Made by a program: the position numbers and the translations under genes
In this document: in pieces, positions 1 to 57,911 of the stretch
Layout of the letters: each line of letters begins with the position of its first letter
Numbering within the stretch: the first letter of the stretch is position 1
The notes under the pieces: model-generated
The model's input: only the letters and a program-made list of their open reading frames with translations
Told to the model about the DNA's origin: nothing
Database searches by the model: none
Source: a virus
Taxonomy: Duplodnaviria > Caudoviricetes
Length of the DNA stretch: 57,911 bases
Virus record (IMG/VR): IMGVR_UViG_3300027777_000041
Location: 1-57,911 of that record
Strand: one strand, 5' to 3'

Positions 1-43
1 GGGGGGGGGGGGCCCGGGGGGGGGGGGGGGGGGGGGGGGGGGG
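1..43. other. Poly-G tract at contig end (probable two-colour sequencing artefact or unresolved G-rich terminus)
   Basis: Almost pure G run at the very start; the far end (57882-57911) is also G-rich. Confidence 0.6.
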
Positions 44-238
44 TATGCTTGGGTTGGTTTGTACATCCTAGGATGTATGGGTGTTTGATGTGCCGAAGGG
101 ACCCAAATGGGGGGGGGGTACTCAAGTTGGTTTGTAAATACTGGTTTGTGGGGAGGTTTGAAGAGGGGGGAAAAGGGACCCAGACCGGCCCGGCCTCTTG
201 CCCAGCTTGTGTTACTCCGGTCGTCGTCAAGGGTACCT

Positions 239-275
239 GAACAAAACAAGAACAAACTTAGAACAAAACAGGAAC
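239..275 (+). promoter_or_regulatory. Tandem alphaproteobacterial LexA (SOS) boxes, GAAC-N7 x4
   Basis: GAAC at 239, 250, 261, 272 with exact 11-bp period; matches GAAC-N7-GAAC (=GTTC-N7-GTTC). Confidence 0.8.
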
Positions 276-308
276 AAATGCGGAGCGCGTCAGCATGAGC
301 GCGGCTAT

Positions 309-324
309 TGTTTCACGTGAAACA
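309..324. promoter_or_regulatory. parS: parS site 1
   Basis: Perfect palindrome TGTTTCACGTGAAACA, the chromosomal ParB-binding consensus. Confidence 0.9.
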
Positions 325-335
325 TTCTGCGCGGT

Positions 336-361
336 GTTCTTGCTTTGTTCACGGTTTGTTC
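336..361 (+). promoter_or_regulatory. Tandem LexA boxes, GTTC-N7-GTTC-N7-GTTC
   Basis: GTTC at 336, 347, 358. Confidence 0.8.
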
Positions 362-382
362 TGGCAACATAAGCTTGGCCTA

Positions 383-398
383 TGTTTCACGTAAAACA
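383..398. promoter_or_regulatory. parS: parS site 2 (one mismatch)
   Basis: TGTTTCACGTAAAACA. Confidence 0.8.
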
Positions 399-423
399 TT
401 CTTGGTTTGTTCATGGTTTGTTC
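398..423 (+). promoter_or_regulatory. LexA boxes, ATTC-N7-GTTC-N7-GTTC
   Basis: ATTC 398, GTTC 409, GTTC 420. Confidence 0.75.
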
Positions 424-430
424 TGCCGGA

Positions 431-456
431 GAACAGACCAGTAACAGAACGGGAAC
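431..456 (+). promoter_or_regulatory. Degenerate LexA boxes, GAAC-N7-TAAC-N7-GAAC
   Basis: GAAC 431, TAAC 442, GAAC 453. Confidence 0.55.
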
Positions 457-479
457 GCCCCCAACACAAGCTTGGCCTA

Positions 480-495
480 TGTTTCACGTGAAACA
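480..495. promoter_or_regulatory. parS: parS site 3
   Basis: Perfect TGTTTCACGTGAAACA. Confidence 0.9.
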
Positions 496-553
496 TCGCG
501 TCAACATGAACGTGGCTTTATACTGGAGCGGTGGACACATGGCATTGTGTCAG

Positions 554-569
554 TGTTTCACGTGAAACA
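554..569. promoter_or_regulatory. parS: parS site 4, abutting the terS stop codon
   Basis: Perfect TGTTTCACGTGAAACA. Confidence 0.9.
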
Positions 570-1223
570 TTAGGAGTCTTCATGCTTTGCCGCCAATAGC
601 AGTTGGCGCAATGAGTCGCGCTGCTCTAGCGACAGATCACGGGCGGAAACGTTTAGCGTATTGTGGTTGACCGTCACTTGCGCTGGTTCATTGGCCAGTC
701 TTTCAGCGTAAACCTTGGGGGCAAGCTTTCCCGCCATTCTTAGTCTGGTATCCACTCTGAGCTTGTCCCTAGCAATAGCAGCGTGGTTAATCTCCCCCGC
801 CTTTGTCACGTCACGCGAGTCGTCATCTGCTATATCTAGACATTCCTGAAACAATGTATGCGCTGCATGTTCGCGGGCGCGCCCGTATTTTTCGGCGAAA
901 AGTGGCTCTAAAGCAATCCAGTCATAAACCGTCGATATATGCGGCATGTAATCCAGTGTCGCGCATATATTGTTCAGGCTCTGGCCGTTCGCCATGCGAG
1001 TCACTATCTCGTCGCCTAATGCTTCAGTGTATTTGATCCTAGGCTTTCCCTGTCTAGCTATTGCGTCCGCCTTGGCTCTAATCACTTCCCATGCTTGTGA
1101 CTCTTCTATTGCTTGGGCTTCATTACGCTCTTTACGGGCTTTGAGCTTTTCTTGCGCCTTGTCAGTGGACTCGCCAATGGGCTTGGCGGATTTATTGCGT
1201 TCCTGATTCATAGCAGACTCCAT
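570..1223 (-). CDS. terS: Terminase small subunit (Sf6-like)
   Basis: KYTEALGDEIVTRMANGQSL..IC...PHISTVYDW...F.EKY.RARE...IADD...RDKLRVDTR..MAGKLAPKVY pattern of Sf6-type TerS. Confidence 0.85.
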   Translation of the reverse strand: MESAMNQERNKSAKPIGESTDKAQEKLKARKERNEAQAIEESQAWEVIRAKADAIARQGKPRIKYTEALGDEIVTRMANGQSLNNICATLDYMPHISTVYDWIALEPLFAEKYGRAREHAAHTLFQECLDIADDDSRDVTKAGEINHAAIARDKLRVDTRLRMAGKLAPKVYAERLANEPAQVTVNHNTLNVSARDLSLEQRDSLRQLLLAAKHEDS

Positions 1224-1299
1224 GCTAGATAGAGTCTATATATAGCACAAAGCGCCACGGTGTGAACCATGACGCTTCATGTTATTGCTAAGTTATAGT

Positions 1300-1857
1300 T
1301 TACTTTGGGCGATACCCTGAGATTGCATTTCGCCCCTTGACAGTGATAGCACCCGCCTTGTTCATCAATTCCAATTTAATTAGGCGCGCTTTAATTGCTT
1401 CTAATTCACCCGCATCAATTCCCATGCGGCGCGCTTCATCAGCCCGCGCAAAGCTTTTATAAGCGCAAATGATATACAAAACCGTCTTTTCACATTCCGC
1501 AAGTTCACAATAATCATGAGGCACAAGCTTCACAATATCATCGGGGTGAACGTAAAACGTCAAGCCCATATCTTTCCCGCAGAATATCGAATGCTGGATT
1601 AGACAGAAGCCCGGCCTAATCTCCACTGTCTTTTCAGACCGGCTTGCATTCCAAGGCGCGCCATCCTGTCCCGGCAAAGTGGCGACAGAGCCGCTTGCAA
1701 GTGACACAGCACTAAACAAGTCCCGTGAACCCTCAGACCACAAGCCCGCATCAGCAGGTATTGTGAAGCTTGTGCAAGCCCGCGCTTTGAAAGCTTTACC
1801 TTCATAACCATGACGCAAGAAAGCCGGAACCTGATTCTTTTCAAGATGATGTAGCAT
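1300..1857 (-). CDS. Hypothetical protein, possible C-terminal winged helix
   Basis: 185-aa ORF, AGGTGA RBS; C-terminal ARRMGI...LIKLELMNKAGAITVKG. Confidence 0.65.
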   Translation of the reverse strand: MLHHLEKNQVPAFLRHGYEGKAFKARACTSFTIPADAGLWSEGSRDLFSAVSLASGSVATLPGQDGAPWNASRSEKTVEIRPGFCLIQHSIFCGKDMGLTFYVHPDDIVKLVPHDYCELAECEKTVLYIICAYKSFARADEARRMGIDAGELEAIKARLIKLELMNKAGAITVKGRNAISGYRPK

Positions 1858-2035
1858 GTTTCACCTATTGCTTTGCTTGTGCTTGTTTCTACCTTTACAG
1901 TGTCGTCTATTAAGCCGATTCAGTCTAATCGTTTATTCCGATAATTGCGCCGCTTTCCATCGAATCAAACGATTGGAACCATATAAGGATTCGCGCTATT
2001 GTCTTTTCATAGGCAAACAACACGGGACAACGCAA

Positions 2036-2281
2036 ATGCACTACGCACAAGACCACCTAAAGGAAATTGCCCGCAAGTCAATACAGGCGTCCGATGATCT
2101 TGCCTGTATGTTCATGCACATTGCAGACATTGACGCGAAACAAGCGCAAGACCTTGTGCAATTCTACATTCGAAAAAAGCTTGTTAAGCTTGATTTGTGC
2201 ATGGGTCGCTATACGGTCAAACACGGCATGTATTTGGACCGTGAATTTATCGAACATGTTGTGTTGCGCGGCGCGTTCTAA
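2036..2281 (+). CDS. Hypothetical early protein
   Basis: ATG at 2036 within ORF 1856..2281. Confidence 0.65.
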   Translation: MHYAQDHLKEIARKSIQASDDLACMFMHIADIDAKQAQDLVQFYIRKKLVKLDLCMGRYTVKHGMYLDREFIEHVVLRGAF

Positions 2282-2347
2282 CATTGCAAATCAGCGCCGA
2301 TTACGGTCGGCGTCAATGTGCAATGACGCACACAATGGAGTCCAGTC

Positions 2348-2428
2348 ATGCAAGGAATCATCGAAGCGGTTATTGCCGTGGTCGCGTTGGCATGGGTCGG
2401 TGCGGTCGTCGCGCTTGCTTTCATCTAA
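2348..2428 (+). CDS. 26-aa single-TM peptide (not in ORF track)
   Basis: GGAG RBS; MQGIIEAVIAVVALAWVGAVVALAFI*. Confidence 0.6.
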   Translation: MQGIIEAVIAVVALAWVGAVVALAFI

Positions 2429-2440
2429 TAGGAGTCGGTC

Positions 2441-2608
2441 ATGCAATACATCATTAGAAAGACGGTCGGTCGGTCGGTCCAGTGGACCATATCAGAACAT
2501 CACCACAATAACGTCATAGGGTCTTATCCTACACGTAAGCAAGCGGTCATGGTTGCCCGGTTGCTTGCAGGGTGGAATGGGTCGGTCAGTGTGGAGTCGG
2601 TCAGATGA
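2441..2608 (+). CDS. 55-aa hypothetical protein (not in ORF track)
   Basis: AGGAG RBS; MQYIIRKTVGRS...SVESVR*; ATGA overlap with the next gene. Confidence 0.65.
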   Translation: MQYIIRKTVGRSVQWTISEHHHNNVIGSYPTRKQAVMVARLLAGWNGSVSVESVR

Positions 2609-2748
2609 GACAAGAAACCATTCGGTTAAAGACGTACAACGGCGCGAAACGTCGCGCCCCTTGGGCGGCGGTCATTGCCCGAATTTATGGCGGATTTATC
2701 GCCTTTGAATCGGTCGATGACTTTATAAGATGGAAGGGTCAACAATGA
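2605..2748 (+). CDS. 47-aa hypothetical protein (not in ORF track)
   Basis: MRQETIRLKTYNGAKRRAPWAAVIARIYGGFIAFESVDDFIRWKGQQ*; ATGA-coupled at both ends. Confidence 0.7.
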   Translation: MRQETIRLKTYNGAKRRAPWAAVIARIYGGFIAFESVDDFIRWKGQQ

Positions 2749-2966
2749 AAGTAGAACCAGCACCCTATAGCCTTGCTTGGTATACCAGACTCGCCAGTGG
2801 CTTATCGGTCGGTCAGCTACAGTATGCTGTCCGGGATATACACGCCACCCTACCCATATACCGTGAGCGCGACACACGCGACCCCTATGTAGCCAAGCTG
2901 TTAGCCGAAATGGACGCCTTCACTAGCGAAATGACACTTAGGAAACGTAAAGGGAATCGGTCATGA
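2745..2966 (+). CDS. Hypothetical early protein
   Basis: ATGA-coupled chain. Confidence 0.7.
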   Translation: MKVEPAPYSLAWYTRLASGLSVGQLQYAVRDIHATLPIYRERDTRDPYVAKLLAEMDAFTSEMTLRKRKGNRS

Positions 2967-3193
2967 AACATGAAACAATCACGCCCGGACATGCGGCATA
3001 CATCGAAGATTGTGCTCGGAAACCTAAATACGATACAGGCGAATTGCGCCGGTCATGGGAAATCCTAGATGACCTGACACGCTGGTCATGGGAGCGTGAA
3101 CCCACGCCCCGCGACTGGTCATCATTTCCTAAAGAGGAAATTGGCATTTCGGAGCAGTCCGCATGGTACGACACTAGTGCGGAGCTTGCCTGA
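2963..3193 (+). CDS. Hypothetical early protein
   Basis: ATGA-coupled; 76 aa. Confidence 0.7.
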   Translation: MKHETITPGHAAYIEDCARKPKYDTGELRRSWEILDDLTRWSWEREPTPRDWSSFPKEEIGISEQSAWYDTSAELA

Positions 3194-3293
3194 GATAATC
3201 AATATACGCCACAATAGCAGCGGCTCCCATCAAAAGAGCCGGTGCTACAAAAAACATTAGCATAGCAATAGCAAGAATGGCTTCATCGGTCAT
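3174..3293 (-). CDS. Possible 39-aa membrane peptide, antisense to the early operon
   Basis: MTDEAILAIAMLMFFVAPALLMGAAAIVAYIDYLRQAPH fills the gap between + genes. Confidence 0.4.
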   Translation of the reverse strand: MTDEAILAIAMLMFFVAPALLMGAAAIVAYIDYLRQAPH

Positions 3294-3413
3294 GGTCGGT
3301 CGGTCCTTTGGTCGGTCGGTCGGTCGGTCAATGCGCTTGCATTGCATCGGTCGGTCGGTCATCGGTCGGTCGGTCATAGGTCATAGGTCATAGGTCAACA
3401 TAGGAGATCGGTC
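3287..3413 (+). repeat. (GGTC)n / ATAGGTC short-repeat tract
   Basis: About 19 GGTC copies in ~127 bp in runs of 3-5, with a central CAATGC-gctt-GCATTG inverted repeat. Confidence 0.9.
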
Positions 3414-3414
3414 A

Positions 3415-3639
3415 ATGGCAAAACGATATTTCATCGAAGCTTGTAATGAGCCGCGTGGAGAAGGCAATGGGTGGGATTTATGTACTGATAGTGAAGCTAA
3501 ATGCTTTATGGTATGGGAGGTTACGGATGGCCTGATAGAAGAATGCATAAGCACTTTTCTTACACGTAATGAATCAGAAAAATACATCGGTCGCATTATA
3601 AGGGAATCGGTCAATGGCATGGGTAAGGATGACAGATAA
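3415..3639 (+). CDS. Hypothetical early protein
   Basis: AGGAG RBS; 74 aa. Confidence 0.7.
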   Translation: MAKRYFIEACNEPRGEGNGWDLCTDSEAKCFMVWEVTDGLIEECISTFLTRNESEKYIGRIIRESVNGMGKDDR

Positions 3640-3907
3640 AGAGAGGACGCCAAAGTTTGGTGATCCTTATATGATACAGGTGGTCTGTAGGTCAGATGCA
3701 GAAGCAGATGAAATAGAAGGACTCGCCAGTGCAGACCCGCGTTGGTCAAGAGTAATTATCATGGCTTCACGGGTCTATAAGCGCGCCGATATACCCGATA
3801 GGGTGGTCGAAACAATCACAGCGGAACAGTTTCGGTCAGGCGGTTTCCCCGTTGACCGGGCTGGAGTCATCGGCTACACTTTACCAGTCTCAAACAAAGG
3901 GGGTTAA
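3629..3907 (+). CDS. Hypothetical early protein
   Basis: Overlaps the previous stop; ORF 3614..3907. Confidence 0.65.
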   Translation: MTDKERTPKFGDPYMIQVVCRSDAEADEIEGLASADPRWSRVIIMASRVYKRADIPDRVVETITAEQFRSGGFPVDRAGVIGYTLPVSNKGG

Positions 3908-3908
3908 T

Positions 3909-4133
3909 ATGCATACGCAACATCTTCAAATTACAGACACAGACGGTGACACCATTACGTTCTGCTTTGACAATGATAGCAAGCAAATCGAAGTGGTCAG
4001 TTCATGTGATGATCTTGAAGCTTCGGTCGTCACATACATCAACCGCAAAGAAGTGAAGGCGCTTCAGTCGTTTCTAGACATGTTTACCGCACATATGTAC
4101 CGTCTTGAATCATTTGATGGAGACGACCTGTGA
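3909..4133 (+). CDS. Hypothetical protein, paralogue of 4130..4360
   Basis: HLQITDTDGDTITF...EVKALQSFLD resembles QLEVMDDDGDYMTF...DIREIKNFLD. Confidence 0.7.
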   Translation: MHTQHLQITDTDGDTITFCFDNDSKQIEVVSSCDDLEASVVTYINRKEVKALQSFLDMFTAHMYRLESFDGDDL

Positions 4134-4360
4134 GATCACATCAGCTTGAAGTCATGGATGATGACGGCGATTATATGACGTTTGAAACCAACAGTGCGGA
4201 TCCGGGTGCAGTTGCAATCTCTTGGACCGCTAAACTGACCGATGGATCTTTCAAACAAATTGCTTCGCTTATGTTCGATATTGACGATATTCGGGAAATC
4301 AAGAATTTCTTAGATATTGCCTGTCGAAATCACATAAAGTCCGAACTGTTTGCGGACTAA
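4130..4360 (+). CDS. Hypothetical protein, paralogue of 3909..4133
   Basis: GTGA overlap; followed by a terminator. Confidence 0.7.
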   Translation: MRSHQLEVMDDDGDYMTFETNSADPGAVAISWTAKLTDGSFKQIASLMFDIDDIREIKNFLDIACRNHIKSELFAD

Positions 4361-4362
4361 AG

Positions 4363-4386
4363 AAAGGGGGCTACGGCCCCTTTTTT
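4363..4386 (+). terminator. Rho-independent terminator
   Basis: GGGGC-TACG-GCCCC hairpin plus T run. Confidence 0.8.
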
Positions 4387-4389
4387 CTA

Positions 4390-4418
4390 TTGACCCGCAA
4401 AGTGATTCCTGGCATATT
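4390..4418 (+). promoter_or_regulatory. Sigma70-like promoter
   Basis: TTGACC-N17-CATATT upstream of ORF 4451. Confidence 0.6.
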
Positions 4419-4450
4419 GTCAGTGCCACAAAGGCAACAGGAGAAACCAA

Positions 4451-4675
4451 ATGTACTATCTTATCAATGACGACTCTGAAATGTCTTTTGCCCAGCAAAT
4501 CGCAATATGCGACACTTTTCACAACATCGCCAATGCCGTGCGTCGGGCAGACGCCCTCAAAACTAAGACCGGCCTAAATTGGTCTGTCGTTAAACTGGAA
4601 AGCGTTTATACAACACAGACTTTGCATGAAGCTATGCTTAAGTCTCCAGACGTTCCGATGATGGAACGGGCCTAA
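4451..4675 (+). CDS. Hypothetical protein in its own promoter-gene-terminator unit
   Basis: AGGAG RBS; flanked by two near-identical terminators. Confidence 0.75.
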   Translation: MYYLINDDSEMSFAQQIAICDTFHNIANAVRRADALKTKTGLNWSVVKLESVYTTQTLHEAMLKSPDVPMMERA

Positions 4676-4680
4676 CAGGG

Positions 4681-4704
4681 AAGGGGGCTACGGCCCCCTT
4701 TTTA
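4681..4704 (+). terminator. Rho-independent terminator at convergence point
   Basis: AAGGGGGC-TACG-GCCCCCTT plus T run. Confidence 0.8.
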
Positions 4705-5581
4705 TTTTGTGTATGTCGTTCCAATCGGTTCCCGGCAAATCAGGTATTCTAATCTCTACACCCAACTTGAACTGAACAGCAAGCCTATTGGCAAGCCGAT
4801 AGGCCGCAGCCTGACCTGTATAATTTAGGTCATTGTCGCCAAATACATACACAACCTTGGCAATTTCAGGCGGAACCCACTTAGCCAACAGGTTGGCGTT
4901 TACACATGCCCAAACTGGCATATCAAACAAGATGCTGGCGCTGATCGCAGTTTCAATGCCCTCTGCTACCCCCATAATGCCAGCAGCGGGCGCAAGCCTA
5001 ATGGCACAACCCTCTGGCAAGCTGCCCGGCAAGACCTTTCGATTAGGGGTTATGTCAGCCTTTTGGCCATCTTTGGTCAGGTAGGTCACATGTAAATTCA
5101 CTGGCTTGTCGTCTGATCCAGCGATCTTGGCGATCAGTGCTATTTTGTCGCACCGCTCTCTAAGGGCTTTAGAAGGCCACTGGCAGCCAAAACGGTTCTG
5201 TAGGTAAAGAGATACCGGGGAACCCTCTTCCGGCTCTACGGCCCCGTCCCAGACTGATTGCATGAGCCTTCGCTGATCGTTTTTAGGCTTGGCTGAATGT
5301 TGCTGGTTCAAAGTATTGGATATACCCAGCTCACATGCGATGGAATCAGCCACCTGTCGGAAAGACTTGCCAGTGACTTTCATCGCCAATGTGAACCCAT
5401 CCCCAGCACCACACTGGGAACAGAAGAAAGATCCAGAACCATCCCGATCATCAAATCGAAACCGATCTGTTCCGCCGCACACAGGACAACTGACGTGCTT
5501 TCCCGTCAAAAACCTTGTGTCTATGCCAAGCGCCGGTAATAACTCCCGCCACCTACCACGCGCCGCATCAGGTATTTTCAT
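4688..5581 (-). CDS. DNA primase (P4 alpha-type Zn ribbon plus Toprim)
   Basis: CPVCGGTDRFRFDD...CSQCGAGDG; GVAEGIETA; FGDND; DWND. Confidence 0.9.
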   Translation of the reverse strand: MKIPDAARGRWRELLPALGIDTRFLTGKHVSCPVCGGTDRFRFDDRDGSGSFFCSQCGAGDGFTLAMKVTGKSFRQVADSIACELGISNTLNQQHSAKPKNDQRRLMQSVWDGAVEPEEGSPVSLYLQNRFGCQWPSKALRERCDKIALIAKIAGSDDKPVNLHVTYLTKDGQKADITPNRKVLPGSLPEGCAIRLAPAAGIMGVAEGIETAISASILFDMPVWACVNANLLAKWVPPEIAKVVYVFGDNDLNYTGQAAAYRLANRLAVQFKLGVEIRIPDLPGTDWNDIHKIKRGP

Positions 5582-5786
5582 CTTTGTCCCCTAAAGAACA
5601 ATCTGTTGTCTCTAAAGCCTCCAAAATAATCGTTCGGGCCAATATATTAGCTCCCCAATCGCCAAGGCTAAGAATCTCCTTGAGGGCGTTTTCCAGTTGT
5701 TCAATTCGAACAGTAGCAGCTTTCAATTCTGAAAGCGCATCTTGCACTACATACTCCAATTCTGAAACGTAATCGGGGTCAATCAT
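5568..5786 (-). CDS. Small coiled-coil cassette protein
   Basis: RIEQLENALKEI...ALE motif shared with the cassette family. Confidence 0.65.
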   Translation of the reverse strand: MIDPDYVSELEYVVQDALSELKAATVRIEQLENALKEILSLGDWGANILARTIILEALETTDCSLGDKDENT

Positions 5787-6123
5787 CTTTCCCCTCCAGT
5801 GCGTTGACGCCTAATTTACGGTTACGAGCTTCCTCAAAATCCGCCTCAGTCATCAGCGCATTGTTGGCGATGATGATCCGATTTAGGAGCAGCGAGTGCA
5901 TGTCAATCGCGTCTTGGGGCGTAAAATCGGGATACCGGTAAACCCCCTCGGGGTCCGCCAACGCGATTGGCCGCCCAAGTTCCCGCAGCGCCGCCTCCAG
6001 CCTTTCGATGCGGTCGGCGGCTTCGTGTCGCTCTGACCATAGCACAGTTCGCGCTTCGCGGTGGCGCTGTCGATCTCCGGGCAGCTCATCTGCGCGCAGT
6101 CGTTTCACAAGATCATCGCTCAT
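5779..6123 (-). CDS. 'MSDDLVKRLR...LEAALR...ALEGKDD' cassette family protein
   Basis: Conserved N-terminal, middle and C-terminal blocks shared with neighbours. Confidence 0.75.
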   Translation of the reverse strand: MSDDLVKRLRADELPGDRQRHREARTVLWSERHEAADRIERLEAALRELGRPIALADPEGVYRYPDFTPQDAIDMHSLLLNRIIIANNALMTEADFEEARNRKLGVNALEGKDD

Positions 6124-7550
6124 TCTTTCCCCTCCAGTGTTTTGGCAACCTCTATGCGGGCCTTTGCAATTGCAAAGTATTCGCTGTTCATTTCAATTCC
6201 GATGAAATCAAAACCTTCTAACATCGCGGCTTTTCCAGTGCTACCACTTCCCATGAACGGGTCAAGCACTGTTCCGCCCGGCTGCGTCACAAGGCGGCAA
6301 AGATAGCGCATGAGGTCGGTGGGTTTGACCGTCGGGTGGTTGTTGGCCTCGCCACGATCTTTCTTGGCTGTCTTGGCGCAGTAGAAGAAGCGGGCGGCAG
6401 AGCCGGTGTCGCCGTAGCCTGTCTCTTGTTCGCCCGTTATATTGAGCCGCCCAGACATGGAATTTGTGTCATGCGCTTTGCGGCGGGTTCCGGGGTTCCC
6501 GCTTGTTGTCTCAGGAAACAAGTCCAACACCATCTGCGATCCGTCATGGATCAGGTTGGCGGGCCAGCGGCCAAGTGGCGATGATTTAACCGTTCCACGC
6601 GGAAGGCTTACAGTATCGCCGCTTTGCTGCTTTGATGTTGTCCATGCGCCATTTCCGCCAAGGCGAGGGTCATCTATATTTGGGTCAGTTTCAACCCTAC
6701 ACCCATCCACATTGATCGCCCCCGTCCCATGCGCCAGCACGTTCTCGGCCACCGTCCCGATCAGCGGCTTGCGGGCAACAGTGATAGGCTCCAAGGCGGG
6801 CTTGAGGGCGGTGCCCCATCCATCCCATTGCTGGGCGGCTTCGGTGGCGGGGGCTGTAAGATTTTCAACGCCATAACCAAAAATAGATTTGTTATTTTTA
6901 TTAGCGTCAGCCGCAGCCATTGTAACGCCAGATGTTTTTGCTTTTTCAACATCGCCACGAATTTTCTGCCCAATAACCTCCCGCTCCGCACCCGCCGCCT
7001 TATCAATCGCCTTACTCACATCTAGCGACTTCGGGAATCCAGACCCGTAAACCCATGCGATCATGTCGCGGATTTCAAAGCCAGCATCCTCAATTCCAGA
7101 ACACATGCGATGGTGTGTTCTCGTTCCGGCAAACGCCAGCAGATGGCCGCCCGGCTTCAAGACGCGGTAGCATTCAGAGGCCCATTCAGTCACCCACGTC
7201 TGAAAAACCCGCATCCGGTCTCCCCCACTGTGCTTTGGCTTTGGGCTGTCACATGTGCAGCGAGAGCCACCTTTACCAATCAACATTTTGCATTTTTCGC
7301 AACGATTCAAATTTGAGCCGGTGAATGACGGCCAAGATGTTTCGCGCTCACCAATTCCGGGTTCGCTGAACCCGCCACTTACCTGTTTCCAAGGCGCATC
7401 CCAATCCTTCCCCATAAACTCTAGGCCATAGGGCGGGTCGGTCACGATGGCGTCCACTGAGTTGTCAGGAAGCTCCCGCAGCCGCTCAAGGCAGTCACCC
7501 AACATCAAATTAATCTCGTTCATTTGCCGCCTCACAAGATCGTCAGTCAT
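6120..7550 (-). CDS. DNA methyltransferase, N4-C/N6-A (beta class)
   Basis: GDCLE...IVTDPPYG near N-terminus; HPTVKP...VLDPFMGSGSTG near C-terminus; start 7550 or 7523. Confidence 0.9.
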   Translation of the reverse strand: MTDDLVRRQMNEINLMLGDCLERLRELPDNSVDAIVTDPPYGLEFMGKDWDAPWKQVSGGFSEPGIGERETSWPSFTGSNLNRCEKCKMLIGKGGSRCTCDSPKPKHSGGDRMRVFQTWVTEWASECYRVLKPGGHLLAFAGTRTHHRMCSGIEDAGFEIRDMIAWVYGSGFPKSLDVSKAIDKAAGAEREVIGQKIRGDVEKAKTSGVTMAAADANKNNKSIFGYGVENLTAPATEAAQQWDGWGTALKPALEPITVARKPLIGTVAENVLAHGTGAINVDGCRVETDPNIDDPRLGGNGAWTTSKQQSGDTVSLPRGTVKSSPLGRWPANLIHDGSQMVLDLFPETTSGNPGTRRKAHDTNSMSGRLNITGEQETGYGDTGSAARFFYCAKTAKKDRGEANNHPTVKPTDLMRYLCRLVTQPGGTVLDPFMGSGSTGKAAMLEGFDFIGIEMNSEYFAIAKARIEVAKTLEGKE

Positions 7551-7740
7551 TTGTCGCCTCCAGTGCTTTGCGGGCAATGAGCTTCATGGTCTTCGACACG
7601 GCGCAGCAGTCCCAATCCGTGGACAGCTCTCGCAGCGCCGCCTCCAGCTTCTGGATACGGTCAGATTGTGACTGTAACTTGCTTGCCGCAGCATCGGATT
7701 CCCAGCTTCCGTTAGCGCGTAGCATTTCAACCAGCGTCAT
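7543..7740 (-). CDS. Cassette family protein
   Basis: MTLVEMLR...DRIQKLEAALR...ARKALEATND. Confidence 0.7.
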   Translation of the reverse strand: MTLVEMLRANGSWESDAAASKLQSQSDRIQKLEAALRELSTDWDCCAVSKTMKLIARKALEATND

Positions 7741-8834: not shown

Positions 8835-9050
8835 TTAACTTTCTCCCGTTTTTTTAACACGTTCTGCGGATGTGTTTAGTTTATTGACAGGTGAGGGTCC
8901 GCAGTAGATCAAGTTTTTGTCGCATTCAGGGCAGCGCATCGCGATCATCTTCTCTGCCGCTTCAGCGATGGGCATTGGCAGTTTCAAGGCAAACCATTCA
9001 TGCTTGCATGAGCCGCAGTGGACTAGCAAAGAGTCGGGTGCGTCAGTCAT
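8835..9050 (-). CDS. Small zinc-ribbon protein
   Basis: CGSCKHEW...CPEC. Confidence 0.7.
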   Translation of the reverse strand: MTDAPDSLLVHCGSCKHEWFALKLPMPIAEAAEKMIAMRCPECDKNLIYCGPSPVNKLNTSAERVKKTGES

Positions 9051-9379
9051 GCTTTGCCCCCATTGAGGATGTTGGCTGCATGAATTTCTCTGGTTTGCCG
9101 CATTGCTTCGTGTAACGCACGAGTCGATAAATCCATATGCTCGGCATATATTTCATCTGTTATTTCCCGATGGGTGATGATGTACCCCAGTTTTATTTCT
9201 TTCCATTCGTAAACCGGATGCGCCATGCTAGTTAAGCCAATACCATCCAATTCATGCAGATGCTGCGGCATCACTTTCATCGGCATGATGTTGGCAGCTT
9301 TGACAACCGCAGGCGCTGCTATCAGGCCAAACAGGCCGGTGAGGAACTTGCGTCTTGGCATTAAGAGATCAGTCATCAC
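9047..9379 (-). CDS. Twin-arginine-signal-like protein carrying a major-capsid-like fragment
   Basis: PRRKFL + hydrophobic stretch + VKA; residues 61-106 align ungapped to capsid residues 82-127 (21/46 identical). Confidence 0.75.
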   Translation of the reverse strand: MMTDLLMPRRKFLTGLFGLIAAPAVVKAANIMPMKVMPQHLHELDGIGLTSMAHPVYEWKEIKLGYIITHREITDEIYAEHMDLSTRALHEAMRQTREIHAANILNGGKA

Positions 9380-13340: not shown

Positions 13341-13405
13341 ATTATGCGTTGATACAGATTCTTCGTCAAGAGGGGTTGACTCCAAATATGGTTCTGCTAT
13401 GCATT
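13341..13405. promoter_or_regulatory. Divergent sigma70-like promoters between replication and recombination operons
   Basis: Minus strand TTGACG-N17-CATAAT (13369-13341); plus strand TTGACT at 13376 with GCTATG downstream. Confidence 0.65.
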
Positions 13406-13430
13406 ATGCATCCTACCACAGGAGAGCAAA

Positions 13431-13784
13431 ATGAACCTGAGCCCAATCCAGTACACCTTAGACGAACATGCGCTCACGCCAGACATCTACCTGTATGGCA
13501 AGCTAGACATCCTCATTGACCATGTGGATGATATGCCCTTCATTGATTCCTTTGAGCTTGTGCGCGTAGTGAACCTTGACGAAGAAAATGAAGAGCGCAC
13601 GGAAGTTATTTTTGTAAAGGACAAGGACAACGAACCGATTGCATGTGCCGTGTGGACCATGCTAAATCGTGATGAAAAGCTCATGAACGACATCTTCGAT
13701 GATTGCGCCCGCGAAGGTATGTGGGCGGCAGAAGACGACGCAACCGACTTTAGACTGCAAGCCCGCCGTGATGGCGAATACTAA
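13431..13784 (+). CDS. Acidic hypothetical protein
   Basis: AGGAG RBS; 117 aa, D/E-rich. Confidence 0.75.
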   Translation: MNLSPIQYTLDEHALTPDIYLYGKLDILIDHVDDMPFIDSFELVRVVNLDEENEERTEVIFVKDKDNEPIACAVWTMLNRDEKLMNDIFDDCAREGMWAAEDDATDFRLQARRDGEY

Positions 13785-17290: not shown

Positions 17291-17761
17291 ATGAAAACTG
17301 TAATAAACCCTAATACGGATGCAATCATTGATATGTGGCAGACGGGCCTATCCGGCGGACAAATTGCTTGCAGGCTTGGCATTACCCGAAATGCAGTTAT
17401 GGGCATTCTTGGGAGAAGCCGCGCTGCTGGTAAAATTGACTACCGGATAGATATGGAACGGATTAGAAATATCCGGGCTGATGTTGCTGAGATTGAACAA
17501 AAAAGGGCGTCTGTTATTGGTGAGTTTTTGCAGATAGCAATTGCCGGTGGTGATTTGCCTAGCAACAAACCAACCAGTGGCATCACGCTGATGAAACTGA
17601 AACCAAGTTCTTGCCGATATATTATCGGAAGAAATGTGGATGATGAATTTTTGTTCTGTGGAGAACAACGCGGAGCATCATCATACTGTAAAACCCACCA
17701 CAAACTTTGCTATACACCCTTGTCAAAGCTGAAGGAGAAAAACTATGTTGTTACAGCTTAA
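17291..17761 (+). CDS. gcrA: GcrA cell-cycle regulator homologue
   Basis: N-terminal W..GLSGGQIA.RLGITRNAVMG..R; C-terminal TLMKL....CRYIIG...FCG......YC..H...Y. Confidence 0.88.
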   Translation: MKTVINPNTDAIIDMWQTGLSGGQIACRLGITRNAVMGILGRSRAAGKIDYRIDMERIRNIRADVAEIEQKRASVIGEFLQIAIAGGDLPSNKPTSGITLMKLKPSSCRYIIGRNVDDEFLFCGEQRGASSYCKTHHKLCYTPLSKLKEKNYVVTA

Positions 17762-17957
17762 CCCACCAATCCCTGTTGTTACGCCCAAAGGGAAAGGTCT
17801 TGCCCATATTTTAGTGGATTATGGTAGCGACCATGATCTCATTTGGATTGTCTTCCAAAATGATGGGCAATGCTGGTGCTGGCAAAATACAGACATCAGG
17901 GGGCAAACAAACATCACATATGGCCGTTCTACAAGCAGTGAATTTTTGAACCCATAA
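17745..17957 (+). CDS. Hypothetical protein
   Basis: AGGAG RBS; MLLQLNPPIPVVTPKG. Confidence 0.75.
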   Translation: MLLQLNPPIPVVTPKGKGLAHILVDYGSDHDLIWIVFQNDGQCWCWQNTDIRGQTNITYGRSTSSEFLNP

Positions 17958-18003
17958 GAGTCAAATGGCTTGCATGGTTTCGATGATTCTGACATAGTAA
18001 GCG

Positions 18004-18126
18004 GGTCAAGGAATAGTCCTTGGCTTACATGCGGCGATAGTTATGCGTAGGCGCTTGTAGGTCCAGCTCTGTGAATTGTCGAAACGCTTACTTGCCCCGG
18101 TCAGTTCGGTCTGGCCGGGGTTTTTT
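18004..18126 (+). ncRNA. Candidate small RNA
   Basis: TTGCAT-N17-CATAGT at 17970-17998; 5' hairpin TCAAGGA-atag-TCCTTGG; ends in a terminator; no credible ORF. Confidence 0.4.
18094..18126 (+). terminator. Rho-independent terminator at convergence with the late region
   Basis: CCCCGGTCAG...CTGGCCGGGG plus T run. Confidence 0.75.
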
Positions 18127-18493
18127 ATTCAGCGATCAGCTTCCAACTCACCGTAGGCTCATCCCAAACATACTGCTGGCCGTCAGCCGGGTACGGCACG
18201 GGCGCGCTCCACAGCCACGTCGTCTGATCCAGCGTCCAGCTTGCAAAGGGCTGCGGCGCGTAGAACACGTCATTGGCCTGATCGTAGGTGTAGCCAATCC
18301 CTGCGTAATTACCACGCAAGGTCGCGCCGCCATCGGGCTCCCCATCAGGACCGTAATGGACCCCTCCACGGGTGTTGTAGCTGGTCTGTATCCACGAGCC
18401 GGGCGAGGAATCCACGAACGTGTTAAAGAACTCAGGACCGGCGACGATGACTTGGAGTACCTTGCCATCGCAGACCTTGGCGTAATGGCTCAT
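18125..18493 (-). CDS. Tail-fibre-associated (chaperone-like) protein
   Basis: MSHYAKV...WIQTSYNT...RGNYAGIGYTYD...APVPYP; directly follows the Gly-rich fibre gene. Confidence 0.7.
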   Translation of the reverse strand: MSHYAKVCDGKVLQVIVAGPEFFNTFVDSSPGSWIQTSYNTRGGVHYGPDGEPDGGATLRGNYAGIGYTYDQANDVFYAPQPFASWTLDQTTWLWSAPVPYPADGQQYVWDEPTVSWKLIAE

Positions 18494-43919: not shown

Positions 43920-44804
43920 CTACTGGCGGGCTTCGCCTTTTACCTTGTTGCGGTAGTACTCTTGGGGAGTAATGCCACTGATTTTGGCAGCTTCTACTTC
44001 CGCAGCGGTAAGGGTAACAACGCCAGACCGATTAGTGCTGGTCCCAGAACGCGACACCGGAGCCGAAGGAGGCGACGAACGCTTCTGGGTAGGCTTGGCA
44101 GAGTATTCCATCGCATCATCCAAACCGGGGATGGCGCGCTTAGACTCACCAATGCCAAGACGGTTTTCGACAAACTTAAAATACGCATCTGATTCGGGGA
44201 TGATCCCATAATCAACGGCATCTTCATGAGCGCGGGCCATCACGCGGATTGAGCGCGAATCAGGCAAATGTTCACGGTTTGTTCGCAACCACTCAGCAGA
44301 ACGTGGAGTTACCTGATTAATCAGGGAATCAACATTCATTTCACGCGGCTGGGGGGCTACAGGCTGACGCGGAGTATTCCGCATTTCCTCATAACCGCTT
44401 TCCAGCTGGCTCAACTTGTTGAAATTGACCTGCATTGCTGACTGAATATCAGTAGCCTTGTCAAAATCACCGATTGCCATCGAATCACGCAAATGAGCCT
44501 TCAGGATTTCCTGATCCCGCTTTACGCTATCAATTGCGCTGGCAACAAGATGCATATTGGTGTCAGACACCTCACCATATGCCGCCTGCGCCTTTTGGTC
44601 AGACACGCGGGCGCGCTCTTCAGCTTGCTCACGGGCTAGACGCTCTTGCTCAAGACGCGCATTAAGCTCCTTAAGAGCCGAATCAACGTCTTTCCCCTTT
44701 TTAGGGGCTTCAACTACTTCAATTTCCTGTTCTTCAGCTTTCTTAGTGTCAACCTTTGGGGCGTCATCCAAGATAACTTCAACAGTTTCTTCCATATCAG
44801 ACAT
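43920..44804 (-). CDS. Capsid scaffolding protein
   Basis: Acidic N-terminus, coiled coil, C-terminal APVSRS...VTLT..E...AK..GIT..EY. Confidence 0.75.
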   Translation of the reverse strand: MSDMEETVEVILDDAPKVDTKKAEEQEIEVVEAPKKGKDVDSALKELNARLEQERLAREQAEERARVSDQKAQAAYGEVSDTNMHLVASAIDSVKRDQEILKAHLRDSMAIGDFDKATDIQSAMQVNFNKLSQLESGYEEMRNTPRQPVAPQPREMNVDSLINQVTPRSAEWLRTNREHLPDSRSIRVMARAHEDAVDYGIIPESDAYFKFVENRLGIGESKRAIPGLDDAMEYSAKPTQKRSSPPSAPVSRSGTSTNRSGVVTLTAAEVEAAKISGITPQEYYRNKVKGEARQ

Positions 44805-44818
44805 AATAGACTCCATAA

Positions 44819-45211
44819 TTACCACACACGGTCAGGCTGATCGACGCGGGCCTTGACATTAACATCGTCAATCATCCGGCAAAGGACGCCATTGACGGTA
44901 ATGCTCCAACCATCTGAAGGCCGGAAGACAATCCAATCACCTTCGTTGATTTCCACATCCCCAAACCACTCACCCGACTTGTCCACAAAGGCAGATGGCC
45001 CCATCTTGACCACCAAACCAACCTTGGACTGAAACCGATCTTCATCAGTTGTTTGACTGGTTAGGATAATTCCGCTTTTTGTCTTCTGAGGGCGGATATA
45101 AACCGCCACCAGCATTTGATTGTTAAATACTTCAACACTACTAAGGTCGCCAAGTTCTTTTACCAAAGCGCCTGCGGGATCAACTTCATGATCCATAGTC
45201 ATAAACGGCAT
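44819..45211 (-). CDS. groES: GroES-like co-chaperonin
   Basis: KTKSGIIL...VGLVVKMGP.AF...EGDWIVF...I.D..V. Confidence 0.85.
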   Translation of the reverse strand: MPFMTMDHEVDPAGALVKELGDLSSVEVFNNQMLVAVYIRPQKTKSGIILTSQTTDEDRFQSKVGLVVKMGPSAFVDKSGEWFGDVEINEGDWIVFRPSDGWSITVNGVLCRMIDDVNVKARVDQPDRVW

Positions 45212-57429: not shown

Positions 57430-57543
57430 GCAGGGGGACCCCGGTAAAGGTCACTGGGTAGTTCGGTTATCAAAAAGACACATTCTAGCCTCATTATCTT
57501 TCTTCCCATTCCGCCGTGCGGAAAGGTCTAAAAGGAGAGAAGC

Positions 57544-57804: not shown

Positions 57805-57842
57805 CCTACGGTTCAGGCACCTAGTACCTACCTAGTACCTAG

Positions 57843-57871
57843 CAGGGGACCCACAAGTCCCCTGTTTTTTT
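57843..57871 (+). terminator. Rho-independent terminator
   Basis: CAGGGGAC-ccacaa-GTCCCCTG-TTTTTTT. Confidence 0.8.
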
Positions 57872-57911
57872 GTGCCTATATGGGGCAGGGGGACCCGGAG
57901 GGGTGGGGGTA

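What the first reader, a model, noticed from the sequence alone, without database searches (positions are those of the whole stretch)
239..569. Non-coding host-regulator hub: interleaved parS and LexA-box array next to terS
Seen: within ~330 bp, four runs of GAAC/GTTC with exact 11-bp periodicity (239-275, 336-361, 398-423, 431-456) alternate with four parS palindromes (309, 383, 480, 554), roughly as repeating [LexA run]-[18-bp motif]-[parS] units. Established: GTTC-N7-GTTC is the alphaproteobacterial LexA box and TGTTTCACGTGAAACA is the chromosomal ParB site. I recognise no phage lexA, parA or HTH-bearing parB, so the sites would bind host proteins. Inference, two models. (a) DNA decoy: replicating phage genomes titrate LexA (SOS genes derepressed without damage) and ParB (host segregation and division disturbed). 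(b) Protein-free episome maintenance: with no integrase or CI, the phage borrows host ParAB/SMC for partition and host LexA as a damage-responsive switch. I do not know of a described phage element combining both.
Basis: partly seen in the sequence, partly recalled or inferred. Interest (0 to 1): 0.92.

Follow-up and report, generated by a model that had tools for sequence, protein, structure and literature searches.

The report
Host ParB and LexA docking array
An uncultured freshwater phage keeps, just after its small-terminase gene, a conserved gene-free block that interleaves four copies of the bacterial chromosome "centromere" site with rows of sites matching its likely host's DNA-damage repressor, so it probably borrows or soaks up two host proteins, as phage phi29 is known to do.

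Summary
Window 239-569 has four parS sites (three exact, one with 1 mismatch; expected 0.04). It also has five exact matches to the extended Caulobacter LexA consensus GAACA-N6-GAACA-W (six genome-wide, expected 0.07). These lie in 11-bp phased runs interleaved with an 18-bp third motif.

The block is not chimeric. It lies downstream of terS in every relative found with terS at 52% identity or more, in two sub-clades. One relative reads across the record's ends. Contigs of three other runs carry the block unchanged.

The phage encodes GcrA, which points to an alphaproteobacterial host. Six-frame searches found no ParB, ParA, LexA or integrase.

I read the block as a promoter-less docking array for host ParB (about 0.8) and host LexA (about 0.5). 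The repeat reader is unproven. Phased GAACA arrays also occur as in-gene iterons in other phages, and terS (a pac site) remains a rival.

LexA as a GIL01-like lysogeny switch is not supported, because the boxes sit between convergent genes with no promoter-like site.

Closest known is phi29, with host Spo0J parS sites plus Spo0A boxes. This scan has noted host-type parS and LexA-box arrays separately on other DNA. The interleaved combination is a new variant. No binding was tested.

The parts
239..278 (+). Run 1: four GAACA units at exact 11-bp spacing, giving three overlapping exact matches to GAACA-N6-GAACA-W
291..308 (+). Degenerate copy of the 18-bp third motif, directly 5' of parS1
   Evidence: family D1, 77% to the reference copy
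309..324 (.). parS1, exact 16-bp consensus palindrome
335..361 (-). Run 2: three TGTTC units at 11-bp spacing, inverted relative to run 1. One box is exact and one has a single mismatch to the extended LexA consensus
365..382 (+). Third motif CAACATAAGCTTGGCCTA, reader unknown
   Evidence: conserved in both sub-clades
383..398 (.). parS2, one mismatch (TGTTTCACGTAAAACA)
398..423 (-). Run 3: ATTC, TGTTC, TGTTC at 11-bp spacing, with one exact extended box (407-423). It directly abuts parS2
431..457 (+). Run 4: degenerate GAACA / TAACA / GAACG at 11-bp spacing
   Evidence: D2, 72%
462..479 (+). Third motif CAACACAAGCTTGGCCTA
480..495 (.). parS3, exact
554..569 (.). parS4, exact. It abuts the terS stop codon
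570..1223 (-). Small terminase subunit (Sf6_terminase family), transcribed towards the array
   Evidence: PF20901, E 9.6e-32; phrog_1482, E 1.7e-30
1..235 (.). Remainder of the same gene-free region: a poly-G run at the assembly break, two 53-nt G/T-rich direct repeats (36-88, 109-161) and AAGGGACCCA motifs (96, 173)
   Evidence: continuity across the record's ends in L006
57804..57911 (.). Right-end part of the same convergent intergenic region, with a hairpin plus T-run after the acidic ORF 57546-57803 and GGGGACCC motifs
44268..44284 (-). The only other exact extended LexA-type box (GAACAAACCGTGAACAT). Its first 15 bases are identical to the box at 347-361. It lies inside ORF 43920-44825
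17291..17761 (+). Phage GcrA homologue, used as a marker for an alphaproteobacterial host
   Evidence: PF07750, E 2.7e-18; among 14 control genomes the family rings only in Caulobacter and Sulfolobus

Best explanation
Window 239-569, with the G-rich stretch on its other side, is a promoter-less, cis-acting docking array in the gap between terS and terL of an alphaproteobacterial phage.

Inferred from sequence identity: the four parS sites load the host's ParB-CTP clamps onto phage DNA.

Inferred, less certain: the phased GAACA runs bind the host's LexA dimers, side by side on one face of the helix.

Inferred consequence: every replicating phage genome assembles a host partition complex. It is then positioned or segregated by the host machinery (the phi29 precedent), and this also drains ParB from the host's own origin region. 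The LexA runs regulate no gene. They either soak up LexA or form an SOS-sensitive protein block beside the parS sites.

The 18-bp third motif has no assigned reader.

My sub-odds: parS read by host ParB about 0.8. GAACA runs read by host LexA about 0.5. If both are true, positioning or carrier-state inheritance versus pure titration is roughly even.
For: - Three parS sites match the consensus at 16 of 16 positions and one at 15 of 16, all within 261 bp.
- There are 5 exact matches in the array to the experimentally defined Caulobacter LexA consensus (T/A)TGTTC-N6-TGTTC (PMC13384398, passage read; counts).
- GAACA cores are the best-conserved columns among 3 close relatives: 0.93, against 0.76 for the N6 spacers and 0.52 for other non-coding columns.
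- Both motif types lie downstream of terS in L005, L006 and L007 (terS 69-80% identical). They also do so in a second sub-clade, L040, L067 and L073 (terS 53%, terL 83%). All 11 of 11 metagenome contigs fetched with a junction pattern carry both, but that pattern required both motifs.
- The phage has no ParB, ParA or LexA of its own.
- Host class: phage GcrA and terL relatives on Rhodobacterales and Paracoccus phages.
- The same unit, TGTTCACG(N)TTTGTTC, occurs in non-coding arrays of two other phage lineages whose nearest named relatives infect Alphaproteobacteria. L201 has terL 67-69% identical to DSS3P8, RcXuper and MD18. L200 has terL 39% identical to Pelagibacter phages. Neither record has the Sf6-type terS: 0 of 5 other array-bearing records, against 3 of 3 positive controls. 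No small window protein is shared with 15 such loci.
- Paired consensus parS sites occur on 49 viral contigs, and only 1 of the 47 searched has a ParB_N domain.
- Precedents: phi29; SGI1 hijacking a helper plasmid's parABS (PMC10954446, search listing only).
Against: - No binding was tested and the host is unknown. Both genome-contig scans found nothing.
- LexA operators normally sit at promoters, and about 97% of Caulobacter SOS promoters have a single box (bioRxiv 10.1101/2025.01.26.634973, passage read). Here there are 0 promoter-like sites and the boxes overlap in runs.
- GAACA arrays at 11-bp phasing are not LexA-specific. Of 122 runs of four or more phased units listed from the viral-contig loci, I judged by eye that most belong to a 'GAACAACAAGT' type. 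In all 9 loci of that type that I translated, the array lies inside a replisome-organiser-like gene, which looks like in-gene iterons.
- Positions beyond the LexA consensus (GAACAAAMC) are also fairly conserved.
- Named alphaproteobacterial phages show no arrays. The 8 named phages with alphaproteobacterial hosts had 0-3 isolated boxes, the unassigned relative MW202675 had 0, and the 6 non-alphaproteobacterial phages had 0-1.
- The array is co-inherited with one terS sub-family and is absent from 25 of 25 more distant terS relatives and from 2 named relatives. That also fits a terS reader.
- Relatives often use TGTTTCACGGGAAACA. All 3 sites of L005 are this variant. Its affinity for ParB is unknown to me.
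Confidence: 0.45

Rival explanations
1. The parS sites dock host ParB, but the phased GAACA runs are the packaging recognition (pac) site. The phage's own small terminase oligomer would bind the phased direct repeats and wrap the DNA, as described for lambda cosB and SPP1 pacL/pacR (both recalled).
For: - The runs start within 150 bp of the terS stop and lie in the terS-terL gap.
- In L067 the runs extend into the 3' end of terS.
- The runs occur only with one terS sub-family (52-100% identity) and in 0 of 25 more distant terS relatives.
- In L200 and L110 similar runs lie about 0.9 kb upstream of terL.
- Phased direct repeats in inverted blocks suit a ring-shaped binder.
Against: - The nearest named relatives have terS and terL adjacent, with no gap and no runs. 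The block therefore looks like an accessory insertion.
- The same unit occurs in records without this terS family (0 of 5, against 3 of 3 controls). In L201 it occurs at several separate intergenic sites, which a unique pac site would not do.
- An identical box lies 44 kb away inside an ORF.
- The exact match to the host-class LexA consensus would then be a coincidence.
Confidence: 0.2
2. The block is a plasmid-like maintenance region. The GAACA runs would be iterons of a replication origin read by an unidentified phage initiator, with a centromere (parS) beside it that uses host ParB. The phage could then persist as an episome.
For: - Phased direct repeats in inverted blocks, with strong dyad symmetry (DNA fold z = -6.5).
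- GAACA arrays at 11-bp phasing lie inside a replisome-organiser-like gene, where I read them as in-gene iterons, in another phage group.
- parS next to an origin is the chromosomal and plasmid norm (recalled).
- There is no integrase or resolvase.
- Distant terL relatives (35% identity) sit on 57-109 kb plasmids of Candidatus Megaera polyxenophila.
Against: - No initiator gene was recognised. The neighbouring wHTH-like gene is not conserved in the second sub-clade.
- There are no DnaA or IHF boxes. The neighbouring stretch is G-rich rather than the AT-rich element I would expect beside an origin.
- No repressor was recognised; the only hit is a sub-threshold HTH_3 match.
- No close relative was found among 72,556 plasmids, and genome contigs gave nothing.
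Confidence: 0.12
3. One reading: host LexA is the phage's lysogeny repressor, as in the tectivirus GIL01, and parS provides partition of a stable plasmid prophage.
For: - GIL01 uses host LexA at SOS boxes in its promoter P1 (PMC4551915, abstract in search listing).
- The phage lacks CI-type and integrase genes.
Against: - The boxes are not at promoters. They lie in a convergent gene-free region with 0 promoter-like sites.
- The divergent early control region at about 13385-13431 has no box.
- No episomal or prophage relative was found.
Confidence: 0.08
4. Both motif types are read only by phage-encoded proteins, and the identity to parS and the LexA box is coincidental. Alternatively, the stretch is an assembly chimera.
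For: - In L200 the palindrome that alternates with TGTTC runs is a different one (TGTCAAATATTTGACA-like), so the architecture can exist without parS.
- The record ends in a poly-G run.
Against: - Three 16-of-16 matches to the universal parS consensus cannot be chance (expected 0.04).
- The phage encodes no ParB-like HTH.
- The block has the same synteny in more than 10 other contigs, and it appears with 0 differences in contigs of three other runs.
Confidence: 0.04

Closest known systems
Bacillus phage phi29: host Spo0J parS sites plus host Spo0A boxes (PMC2731898, introduction and discussion passages read)
   Same: A phage without its own ParB carries several host-type parS sites (five in phi29). 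On the same genome it also carries binding sites for a second host DNA-binding regulator. The host proteins handle the phage genome.
   Different: In phi29 the parS sites are spread over the genome, the 0A boxes sit at promoters and near the DNA ends, and the biology is spore entrapment. Here both site types are packed and interleaved within 330 bp away from promoters, the second factor would be LexA, and the host is a non-sporulating alphaproteobacterium.
Alphaproteobacterial LexA operator: GTTC-N7-GTTC direct repeat, Caulobacter consensus (T/A)TGTTC-N6-TGTTC (PMC3323433, PMC9578287 and PMC13384398, passages read)
   Same: Core, spacing, direct-repeat geometry and the flanking W all match in 5 boxes of the array.
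   Different: The boxes overlap in runs of 3-4 half-sites, are not at a promoter, and show extra conservation (GAACAAAMC).
Tectivirus GIL01, whose lysogeny depends on host LexA (PMC4551915 and PMC11511902, abstracts in search listing)
   Same: A phage with no classical repressor relies on host LexA binding to phage DNA.
   Different: In GIL01 the boxes are in promoter P1 and a phage protein (gp7) assists. No promoter and no gp7-like partner was recognised here.
SGI1 hijacking the IncC plasmid parABS system (PMC10954446, title and abstract in search listing)
   Same: A mobile element carries parS sites for a ParB encoded elsewhere. This stabilises the element and disturbs the owner of the system. 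It is a precedent for both the maintenance and the decoy readings.
   Different: SGI1 is an integrative mobilisable element and the system is a plasmid's, not a phage using the chromosomal ParB.
Terminase recognition sites with phased repeats (lambda cosB R sites, SPP1 pacL/pacR, P1 pac hexamers; recalled, not checked here)
   Same: Blocks of short repeats beside the terS gene.
   Different: Those repeats do not match a host regulator's consensus. Here the nearest relatives lack the whole block.
Plasmid-prophage partition sites (P1 parS, N15 sopC-like sites; recalled)
   Same: Clustered or multiple centromere sites on a phage genome.
   Different: Those phages encode their own ParA/ParB or SopA/SopB. 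This one encodes none.

Membership tests
Chromosomal-type parS (ParB nucleation site) | 16-bp palindrome matching TGTTTCACGTGAAACA | tested here: met
   3 exact sites and 1 with one mismatch; expected 0.04
Chromosomal-type parS (ParB nucleation site) | A cognate ParB is present in the same cell | not testable with these tools
   The phage has no ParB_N or HTH_ParB. The host is unknown.
Chromosomal-type parS (ParB nucleation site) | Specific, CTP-dependent ParB binding and loading | not testable with these tools
   Needs EMSA, ChIP or single-molecule assays.
Alphaproteobacterial LexA operator | Direct repeat GTTC-N7-GTTC, extended consensus (T/A)TGTTC-N6-TGTTC | tested here: met
   6 plain boxes and 5 exact extended boxes in 239-423. 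Consensus taken from PMC13384398.
Alphaproteobacterial LexA operator | Overlaps or adjoins a promoter that it represses | tested here: not met
   0 promoter-like sites in 1-1400. The flanking genes converge on the region.
Alphaproteobacterial LexA operator | The host belongs to a group whose LexA uses this motif | tested here: inconclusive
   Phage GcrA and terL relatives on Rhodobacterales and Paracoccus phages point to Alphaproteobacteria. No host genome was found.
Alphaproteobacterial LexA operator | LexA binding, lost on RecA-stimulated cleavage | not testable with these tools
   Needs a bench test.
pac/cos terminase recognition site | Lies beside or within terS | tested here: met
   The array begins at the terS stop codon.
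pac/cos terminase recognition site | Packaging termini map to it | not testable with these tools
   Only assembled contigs were available, and no starts or ends were reported.
pac/cos terminase recognition site | Unique site that travels with its terS family | tested here: inconclusive
   Present with all terS at 52% identity or more, absent in 25 of 25 more distant ones. But the same unit occurs at 44268 and in records lacking this terS family.
Iteron-type replication origin | Phased direct repeats next to or inside an initiator gene, with an AT-rich element or DnaA boxes | tested here: not met
   Repeats are present, but no initiator was recognised, there are no DnaA or IHF boxes, and the neighbouring stretch is G-rich.
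Self-encoded plasmid-prophage partition module (P1 / N15 type) | Own ParA and ParB beside the centromere | tested here: not met
   No ParB_N, HTH_ParB or AAA_31 in six frames.

The most novel reading that the evidence does not exclude
The array is an SOS-gated ParB corral. LexA dimers stacked on the inverted GAACA runs flank parS1 and parS2 on both sides and parS3 on one. There they act as roadblocks that keep host ParB-CTP clamps concentrated in a compact partition complex, and perhaps keep terminase off the neighbouring packaging region, while the host is undamaged. When DNA damage cleaves LexA, the clamps are released and the complex dissolves. The phage's positioning, silencing or packaging would thereby be coupled to the host's SOS state without any phage-encoded regulator. 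It would be a purely cis-encoded logic element built from two host proteins.
Probability: 0.1. Interest if true: 0.85.

Novelty: new variant of a known kind. Interest (0 to 1): 0.6.

Why it matters
If host ParB and LexA really bind here, a phage with no partition or repressor genes can plug into two central host systems, chromosome segregation and the SOS response, using DNA sites alone.

That would extend the single worked example, phi29 in Bacillus, to Alphaproteobacteria, where ParB also anchors the origin at the pole and positions the division site through MipZ (recalled).

It would fit with the phage's own GcrA and DNA methyltransferase genes as a wider programme of cell-cycle interference.

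It would also help explain a recurrent pattern seen here. Paired host-type parS sites lie on 49 viral contigs, and only 1 of the 47 searched has a ParB domain.

The 330-bp fragment is small enough to test directly with Caulobacter ParB and LexA.

Tried and rejected
- Host identification failed. A genome-contig scan with a terS alignment matched 108 pattern stretches but none encoded a relative. A scan with the phage GcrA matched 485 stretches, again with no relative.
- I could not build a LexA weight matrix from host SOS promoters. The two primary papers with box lists (PMC2238201, PMC545464) are not held. Supplementary box lists, such as Fig. S3A of bioRxiv 10.1101/2025.01.26.634973, could bear on the spacer preference but were not seen.
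- A DNA search of window 1-6000 against named phages found no match. Searches with L106, L148 and L093 also found none, so the hosts of those array-bearing contigs stay unknown.
- GcrA as a marker for alphaproteobacterial phages among other array-bearing records was uninformative: 0 of 15 non-coding-type records and one sub-threshold match among 10 coding-type records.
- Read laying returned only assembled contigs. It gave no molecule starts or ends and no joints usable for terminus mapping. Contigs of X2-X4 stop near 173, at the G-rich repeats, and I take that as an assembly effect, not a finding.
- Rfam found only tRNA-Gln.
- There are no DnaA, CtrA or IHF consensus sites in the region, and GANTC is not enriched.
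- The neighbouring wHTH-like gene (1300-1857) was rejected as reader of the repeats, because it has no counterpart beside the array in L067.
- Phased repeats as a general feature of this terS family were rejected. None of the 25 distant relatives has a 10- or 11-bp phased run near terS; the only 11-bp run, in L012 and L015, lies 2.6 kb away.
- Searches for print precedents of phages using host ParB or LexA sinks were (0 papers). Beyond phi29, GIL01 and SGI1 I saw nothing, but most subscription journals are not in the library.
Full report
WHAT IS THERE. The window is a whole IMG/VR virus record of 57,911 bp, classed linear, with CheckV completeness 100.

At 239-569 the sequence shows four copies of the bacterial parS palindrome. 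Sites 309, 480 and 554 are exact and 383 has one mismatch. These are the only 4 matches at up to 2 mismatches in the genome; 0.04 are expected and 0 of 100 shuffles reach 4.

Between the parS sites lie four runs of GAACA/TGTTC words at 11-bp spacing. Runs 1 (four units) and 2 (three units) are exact. Run 3 has two exact units and one degenerate unit. Run 4 is degenerate.

The simple pattern GAAC-N7-GAAC occurs 7 times in the genome, 6 of them here (expected 1.36).

An 18-bp third motif, CAACAYAAGCTTGGCCTA, sits directly 5' of parS2 and parS3, with a degenerate copy before parS1. It occurs nowhere else at up to 3 mismatches.

The runs are arranged as inverted blocks around the parS sites. As a result the stretch has strong dyad symmetry when folded as single-stranded DNA (z = -6.5 against 100 shuffles).

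SURROUNDINGS. The ORF at 570-1223 on the minus strand is a small terminase (Sf6_terminase, E 9.6e-32; phrog_1482). Its stop codon abuts parS4, so the array is downstream of terS.

On the other side come G/T-rich direct repeats and a poly-G run at the record's left end.

The related contig L006 reads straight from the array, through a poly-C run, into sequence that matches the window's right end (acidic ORF, DUF551-like ORF). The record is therefore closed on itself, and its ends are an assembly break in a homopolymer.

The gene-free region is about 680 bp long (57804-57911 plus 1-569). It lies between convergent genes. Beyond it, on the far side, come tRNA-Gln, a metallophosphoesterase, terL and an SU10-type portal.

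The simple promoter scan finds 0 sigma-70-like sites in 1-1400, against a mean of 1.5 in shuffles.

Rfam finds only the tRNA. No DnaA, CtrA or IHF consensus sites lie in the region.

WHAT THE PHAGE ENCODES. The phage encodes a primase, an SF2 helicase, an N6/N4 DNA methyltransferase, ERF, a YqaJ exonuclease, RusA, an HNH nuclease and a GcrA cell-cycle regulator homologue (PF07750, E 2.7e-18).

Six-frame searches find none of the following: ParB_N, HTH_ParB, AAA_31 (ParA type), LexA_DNA_bind, Peptidase_S24, tyrosine integrase, resolvase. The only helix-turn-helix hit is a sub-threshold HTH_3 match. In each search the control genomes rang.

The best named terL relatives are an uncultured Caudoviricetes record (46% identity), Roseobacter phages CRP-901 and CRP-902 (40%) and Paracoccus phage Pkon1 (36%). 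Together with GcrA this points to an alphaproteobacterial host.

The stretch occurs in freshwater metagenome runs. No host genome or prophage relative could be found. The best plasmid-borne terL is only 35% identical.

IS IT REAL AND CONSERVED? Three close relatives (terS 69-80% identical) carry the same block in the same place, with 3, 5 and 3 parS-type sites and phased GAACA runs.

A second sub-clade, L040, L067 and L073 (terS 53%, terL 83% identical), has the same interleaving directly after terS. It is followed by G/C-rich repeats, tRNA genes and further parS-type sites before terL.

A metagenome scan with a run-to-parS junction pattern returned 11 contigs. All 11 have at least 3 parS-type sites and at least 2 boxes, and 9 of them also carry the terS homologue; the other two are contigs under 2 kb. 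That pattern demanded both motifs, so this count shows spread, not independent co-occurrence.

Contigs from three other sequencing runs cover 173-857, 174-518 and 173-787 with no differences.

Within the alignment of the four close genomes, identity to the window differs by column class:
- GAACA cores: 0.93
- parS: 0.79 (lowered because parS4 is absent in two relatives)
- 18-bp motif: 0.78
- N6 spacers: 0.76
- remaining columns: 0.52

So the words, not just the region, are under constraint.

By contrast, 0 of 25 more distant terS relatives (29-52% identity over the core domain) have either motif or any 10- or 11-bp phased run near terS. In the two nearest named genomes, terS and terL are adjacent and neither motif occurs anywhere.

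The block therefore looks like a clade-specific accessory insertion into the packaging module, gained once.

WHO READS parS? Three 16-of-16 matches to the universal chromosomal consensus cannot be chance, and the phage has no ParB-like protein. The host's ParB is the only known reader.

The situation is recurrent. A viral-contig scan for two consensus parS sites 20-50 bp apart returned 49 stretches. Of the 47 records that could be searched, 1 has a ParB_N domain, though many are fragments.

The documented precedent is phi29. Its genome carries five parS sites for host Spo0J and boxes for host Spo0A, used for spore entrapment and for suppressing the lytic cycle (PMC2731898, passages read).

One caveat applies. 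Relatives often carry TGTTTCACGGGAAACA, and all three sites of L005 are this variant. I do not know how well ParB binds it.

WHO READS THE GAACA RUNS? The experimentally defined Caulobacter LexA consensus is (T/A)TGTTC-N6-TGTTC (PMC13384398, introduction passage). The class-wide motif is the GTTC-N7-GTTC direct repeat (PMC3323433 and PMC9578287).

Written as GAACA-N6-GAACA-W, it has 6 exact matches in the window, 5 of them in the array; 0.07 are expected and 0 of 100 shuffles reach 6. The fifth core base and the W position were not part of the original observation, so this is a passed prediction.

Further support comes from other viral contigs. Among them are non-coding arrays with the same unit, TGTTCACG(N)TTTGTTC, in unrelated genomes:
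- L201 has terL 67-69% identical to the 147-150 kb Rhodobacterales phages DSS3P8, RcXuper and MD18. It carries 12 boxes at several intergenic sites, just after terminator hairpins.
- L200 has terL 39% identical to Pelagibacter phages. Its TGTTC runs alternate with a different palindrome, about 0.9 kb upstream of terL.

Those records lack the Sf6-type terS: 0 of 5, while 3 of 3 hub-bearing controls ring, and only one of the five is near-complete. No small window protein is shared with 15 such loci.

A common host factor explains this more simply than a common phage protein.

AGAINST LexA. No binding was tested.
- The boxes sit at no promoter, whereas about 97% of Caulobacter SOS promoters have one box.
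- The words are conserved beyond the LexA core (GAACAAAMC).
- The 8 named phages of alphaproteobacterial hosts that I checked have 0-3 isolated boxes and no arrays. The unassigned relative MW202675 has 0, and the 6 non-alphaproteobacterial phages have 0-1.
- Phased GAACA arrays are not LexA-specific. By eye, most of the 122 runs listed belong to a 'GAACAACAAGT' type. In all 9 loci of that type that I translated, the array lies inside the open frame of a conserved replisome-organiser-like gene. That looks like origin iterons embedded in an initiator gene.
- The array's distribution follows one terS sub-family, which a terS (pac) reader would also predict.

I put LexA at about 0.5, terS/pac at about 0.2, an unidentified phage initiator (iterons) at about 0.12, and the rest on other readers.

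WHAT DOES IT DO? Shown: the sites, their conservation, the lack of phage-encoded readers, and the lack of a promoter. Everything further is inference.

The GIL01-type reading, with LexA as the phage's repressor, does not fit. The boxes control no recognisable promoter. The only other box (44268-44284, whose first 15 bases are identical to the box at 347-361) lies inside an ORF of unknown function near the capsid genes.

The most economical reading is a docking array. Each phage genome loads host ParB and forms a partition complex. The genome would then be positioned or inherited in slowly growing or stalled cells (the phi29 logic). Once the genome is in many copies, ParB would also be drained from the host's own origin region.

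The LexA runs would either add a LexA sink or act as an SOS-sensitive block next to the parS sites. SGI1, which carries parS sites for a helper plasmid's ParB and both stabilises itself and expels the helper, shows that maintenance and interference can be two faces of one device (PMC10954446, listing only).

The phage's own GcrA and methyltransferase genes make interference with the host cell cycle plausible, but that link is conjecture.

COMPARISON AND NOVELTY. Each half has a known counterpart: host parS on a ParB-less phage (phi29) and host LexA sites on phage DNA (GIL01).

Earlier notes of this scan report both halves separately on other DNA. These include host-type parS beside terS or origins in several uncultured phages, and promoter-less arrays of LexA-type boxes in two uncultured phages. 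I treat those notes as leads.

What is new here is the tight, conserved interleaving of the two site types, with a third unassigned motif, in one 330-bp promoter-less block inside the packaging module. In five literature searches I found no description of such a composite. The library lacks most subscription journals.

I therefore class it as a new variant of a known kind. It is of solid but not exceptional interest, and it is directly testable with Caulobacter ParB and LexA.

Noticed in passing
window 17291-17761 (+) and 6120-7577 (-): The phage encodes a GcrA cell-cycle regulator homologue (PF07750, E 2.7e-18) and a 485-aa N6/N4 DNA methyltransferase. Together they suggest interference with the alphaproteobacterial cell cycle.
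   Followed up: partly
window 1-45 and 57880-57911; L006 5060-5110: The record's two ends join in a long G/C homopolymer run, as L006 reads through it. The 'linear' record is therefore an assembly break, not a physical terminus. The GGGCCC inside the poly-G may be an artefact.
   Followed up: partly
window 36-182 and 57433-57895: There are two 53-nt G/T-rich direct repeats (36-88, 109-161) and recurring AAGGGACCCA / GGGGACCC words on both sides of the junction. The second sub-clade has GGTACC words in the same place. This could be the real packaging or terminus region.
   Followed up: no
window 44268-44284 (-): A lone exact LexA-type box lies inside ORF 43920-44825, which has no family match. 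Its first 15 bases are identical to the box at 347-361.
   Followed up: partly
L077 4700-6330: An unrelated 68.9-kb viral contig (GC 0.45) has six exact parS sites. Each follows a terminator-like hairpin and a GAACC(C) 5-6-bp repeat in successive intergenic gaps. No ParB_N was found in the record.
   Followed up: partly
L039, L044, L048, L051, L056, L059 and similar: Many small viral records of 13-15 kb, several rated 70-100% complete and one with inverted terminal repeats, carry 3-6 exact parS sites and no ParB_N domain. I did not identify what these viruses are.
   Followed up: no
L148, L106, L118, L140, L144, L090, L088, L124, L101 and, by eye, many other loci listed: A 'GAACAACAAGT' array of 4-5 units at 11-bp phasing lies inside the open frame of a conserved replisome-organiser-like gene ('GWIKLHRK...'). 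It encodes an EQQ/NNKRTT linker. It looks like origin iterons embedded in the initiator gene.
   Followed up: partly
L200 (= L109) 17900-18477: A pelagiphage-like contig (GC 0.38) has TGTTC runs at 11-bp spacing that alternate with several copies of a different 16-bp palindrome (TGTCAAATATTTGACA-like), about 0.9 kb upstream of terL. The architecture is the same as in the window, but the palindrome is not parS.
   Followed up: partly
L201 5600-9792: A DSS3P8-like Rhodobacterales-type phage fragment repeats one module in several intergenic gaps: terminator hairpin, then TGTTC-N6-TGTTC boxes, then a conserved element of about 100 bp (GGACGGATTCCGCC...TTCCTGACCTC).
   Followed up: no
L073 4076-4626; window 9047-9379: In the second sub-clade a homologue of window ORF 9047-9379 (no family match) sits between terS and terL on the opposite strand. 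It is bracketed by two parS-type sites.
   Followed up: no
plasmids CP113870.1, AP017967.1, CP113869.1: Plasmids of 57-109 kb in Candidatus Megaera polyxenophila carry a terL 35-36% identical to the window's. They may be phage-plasmids of a distantly related group.
   Followed up: no
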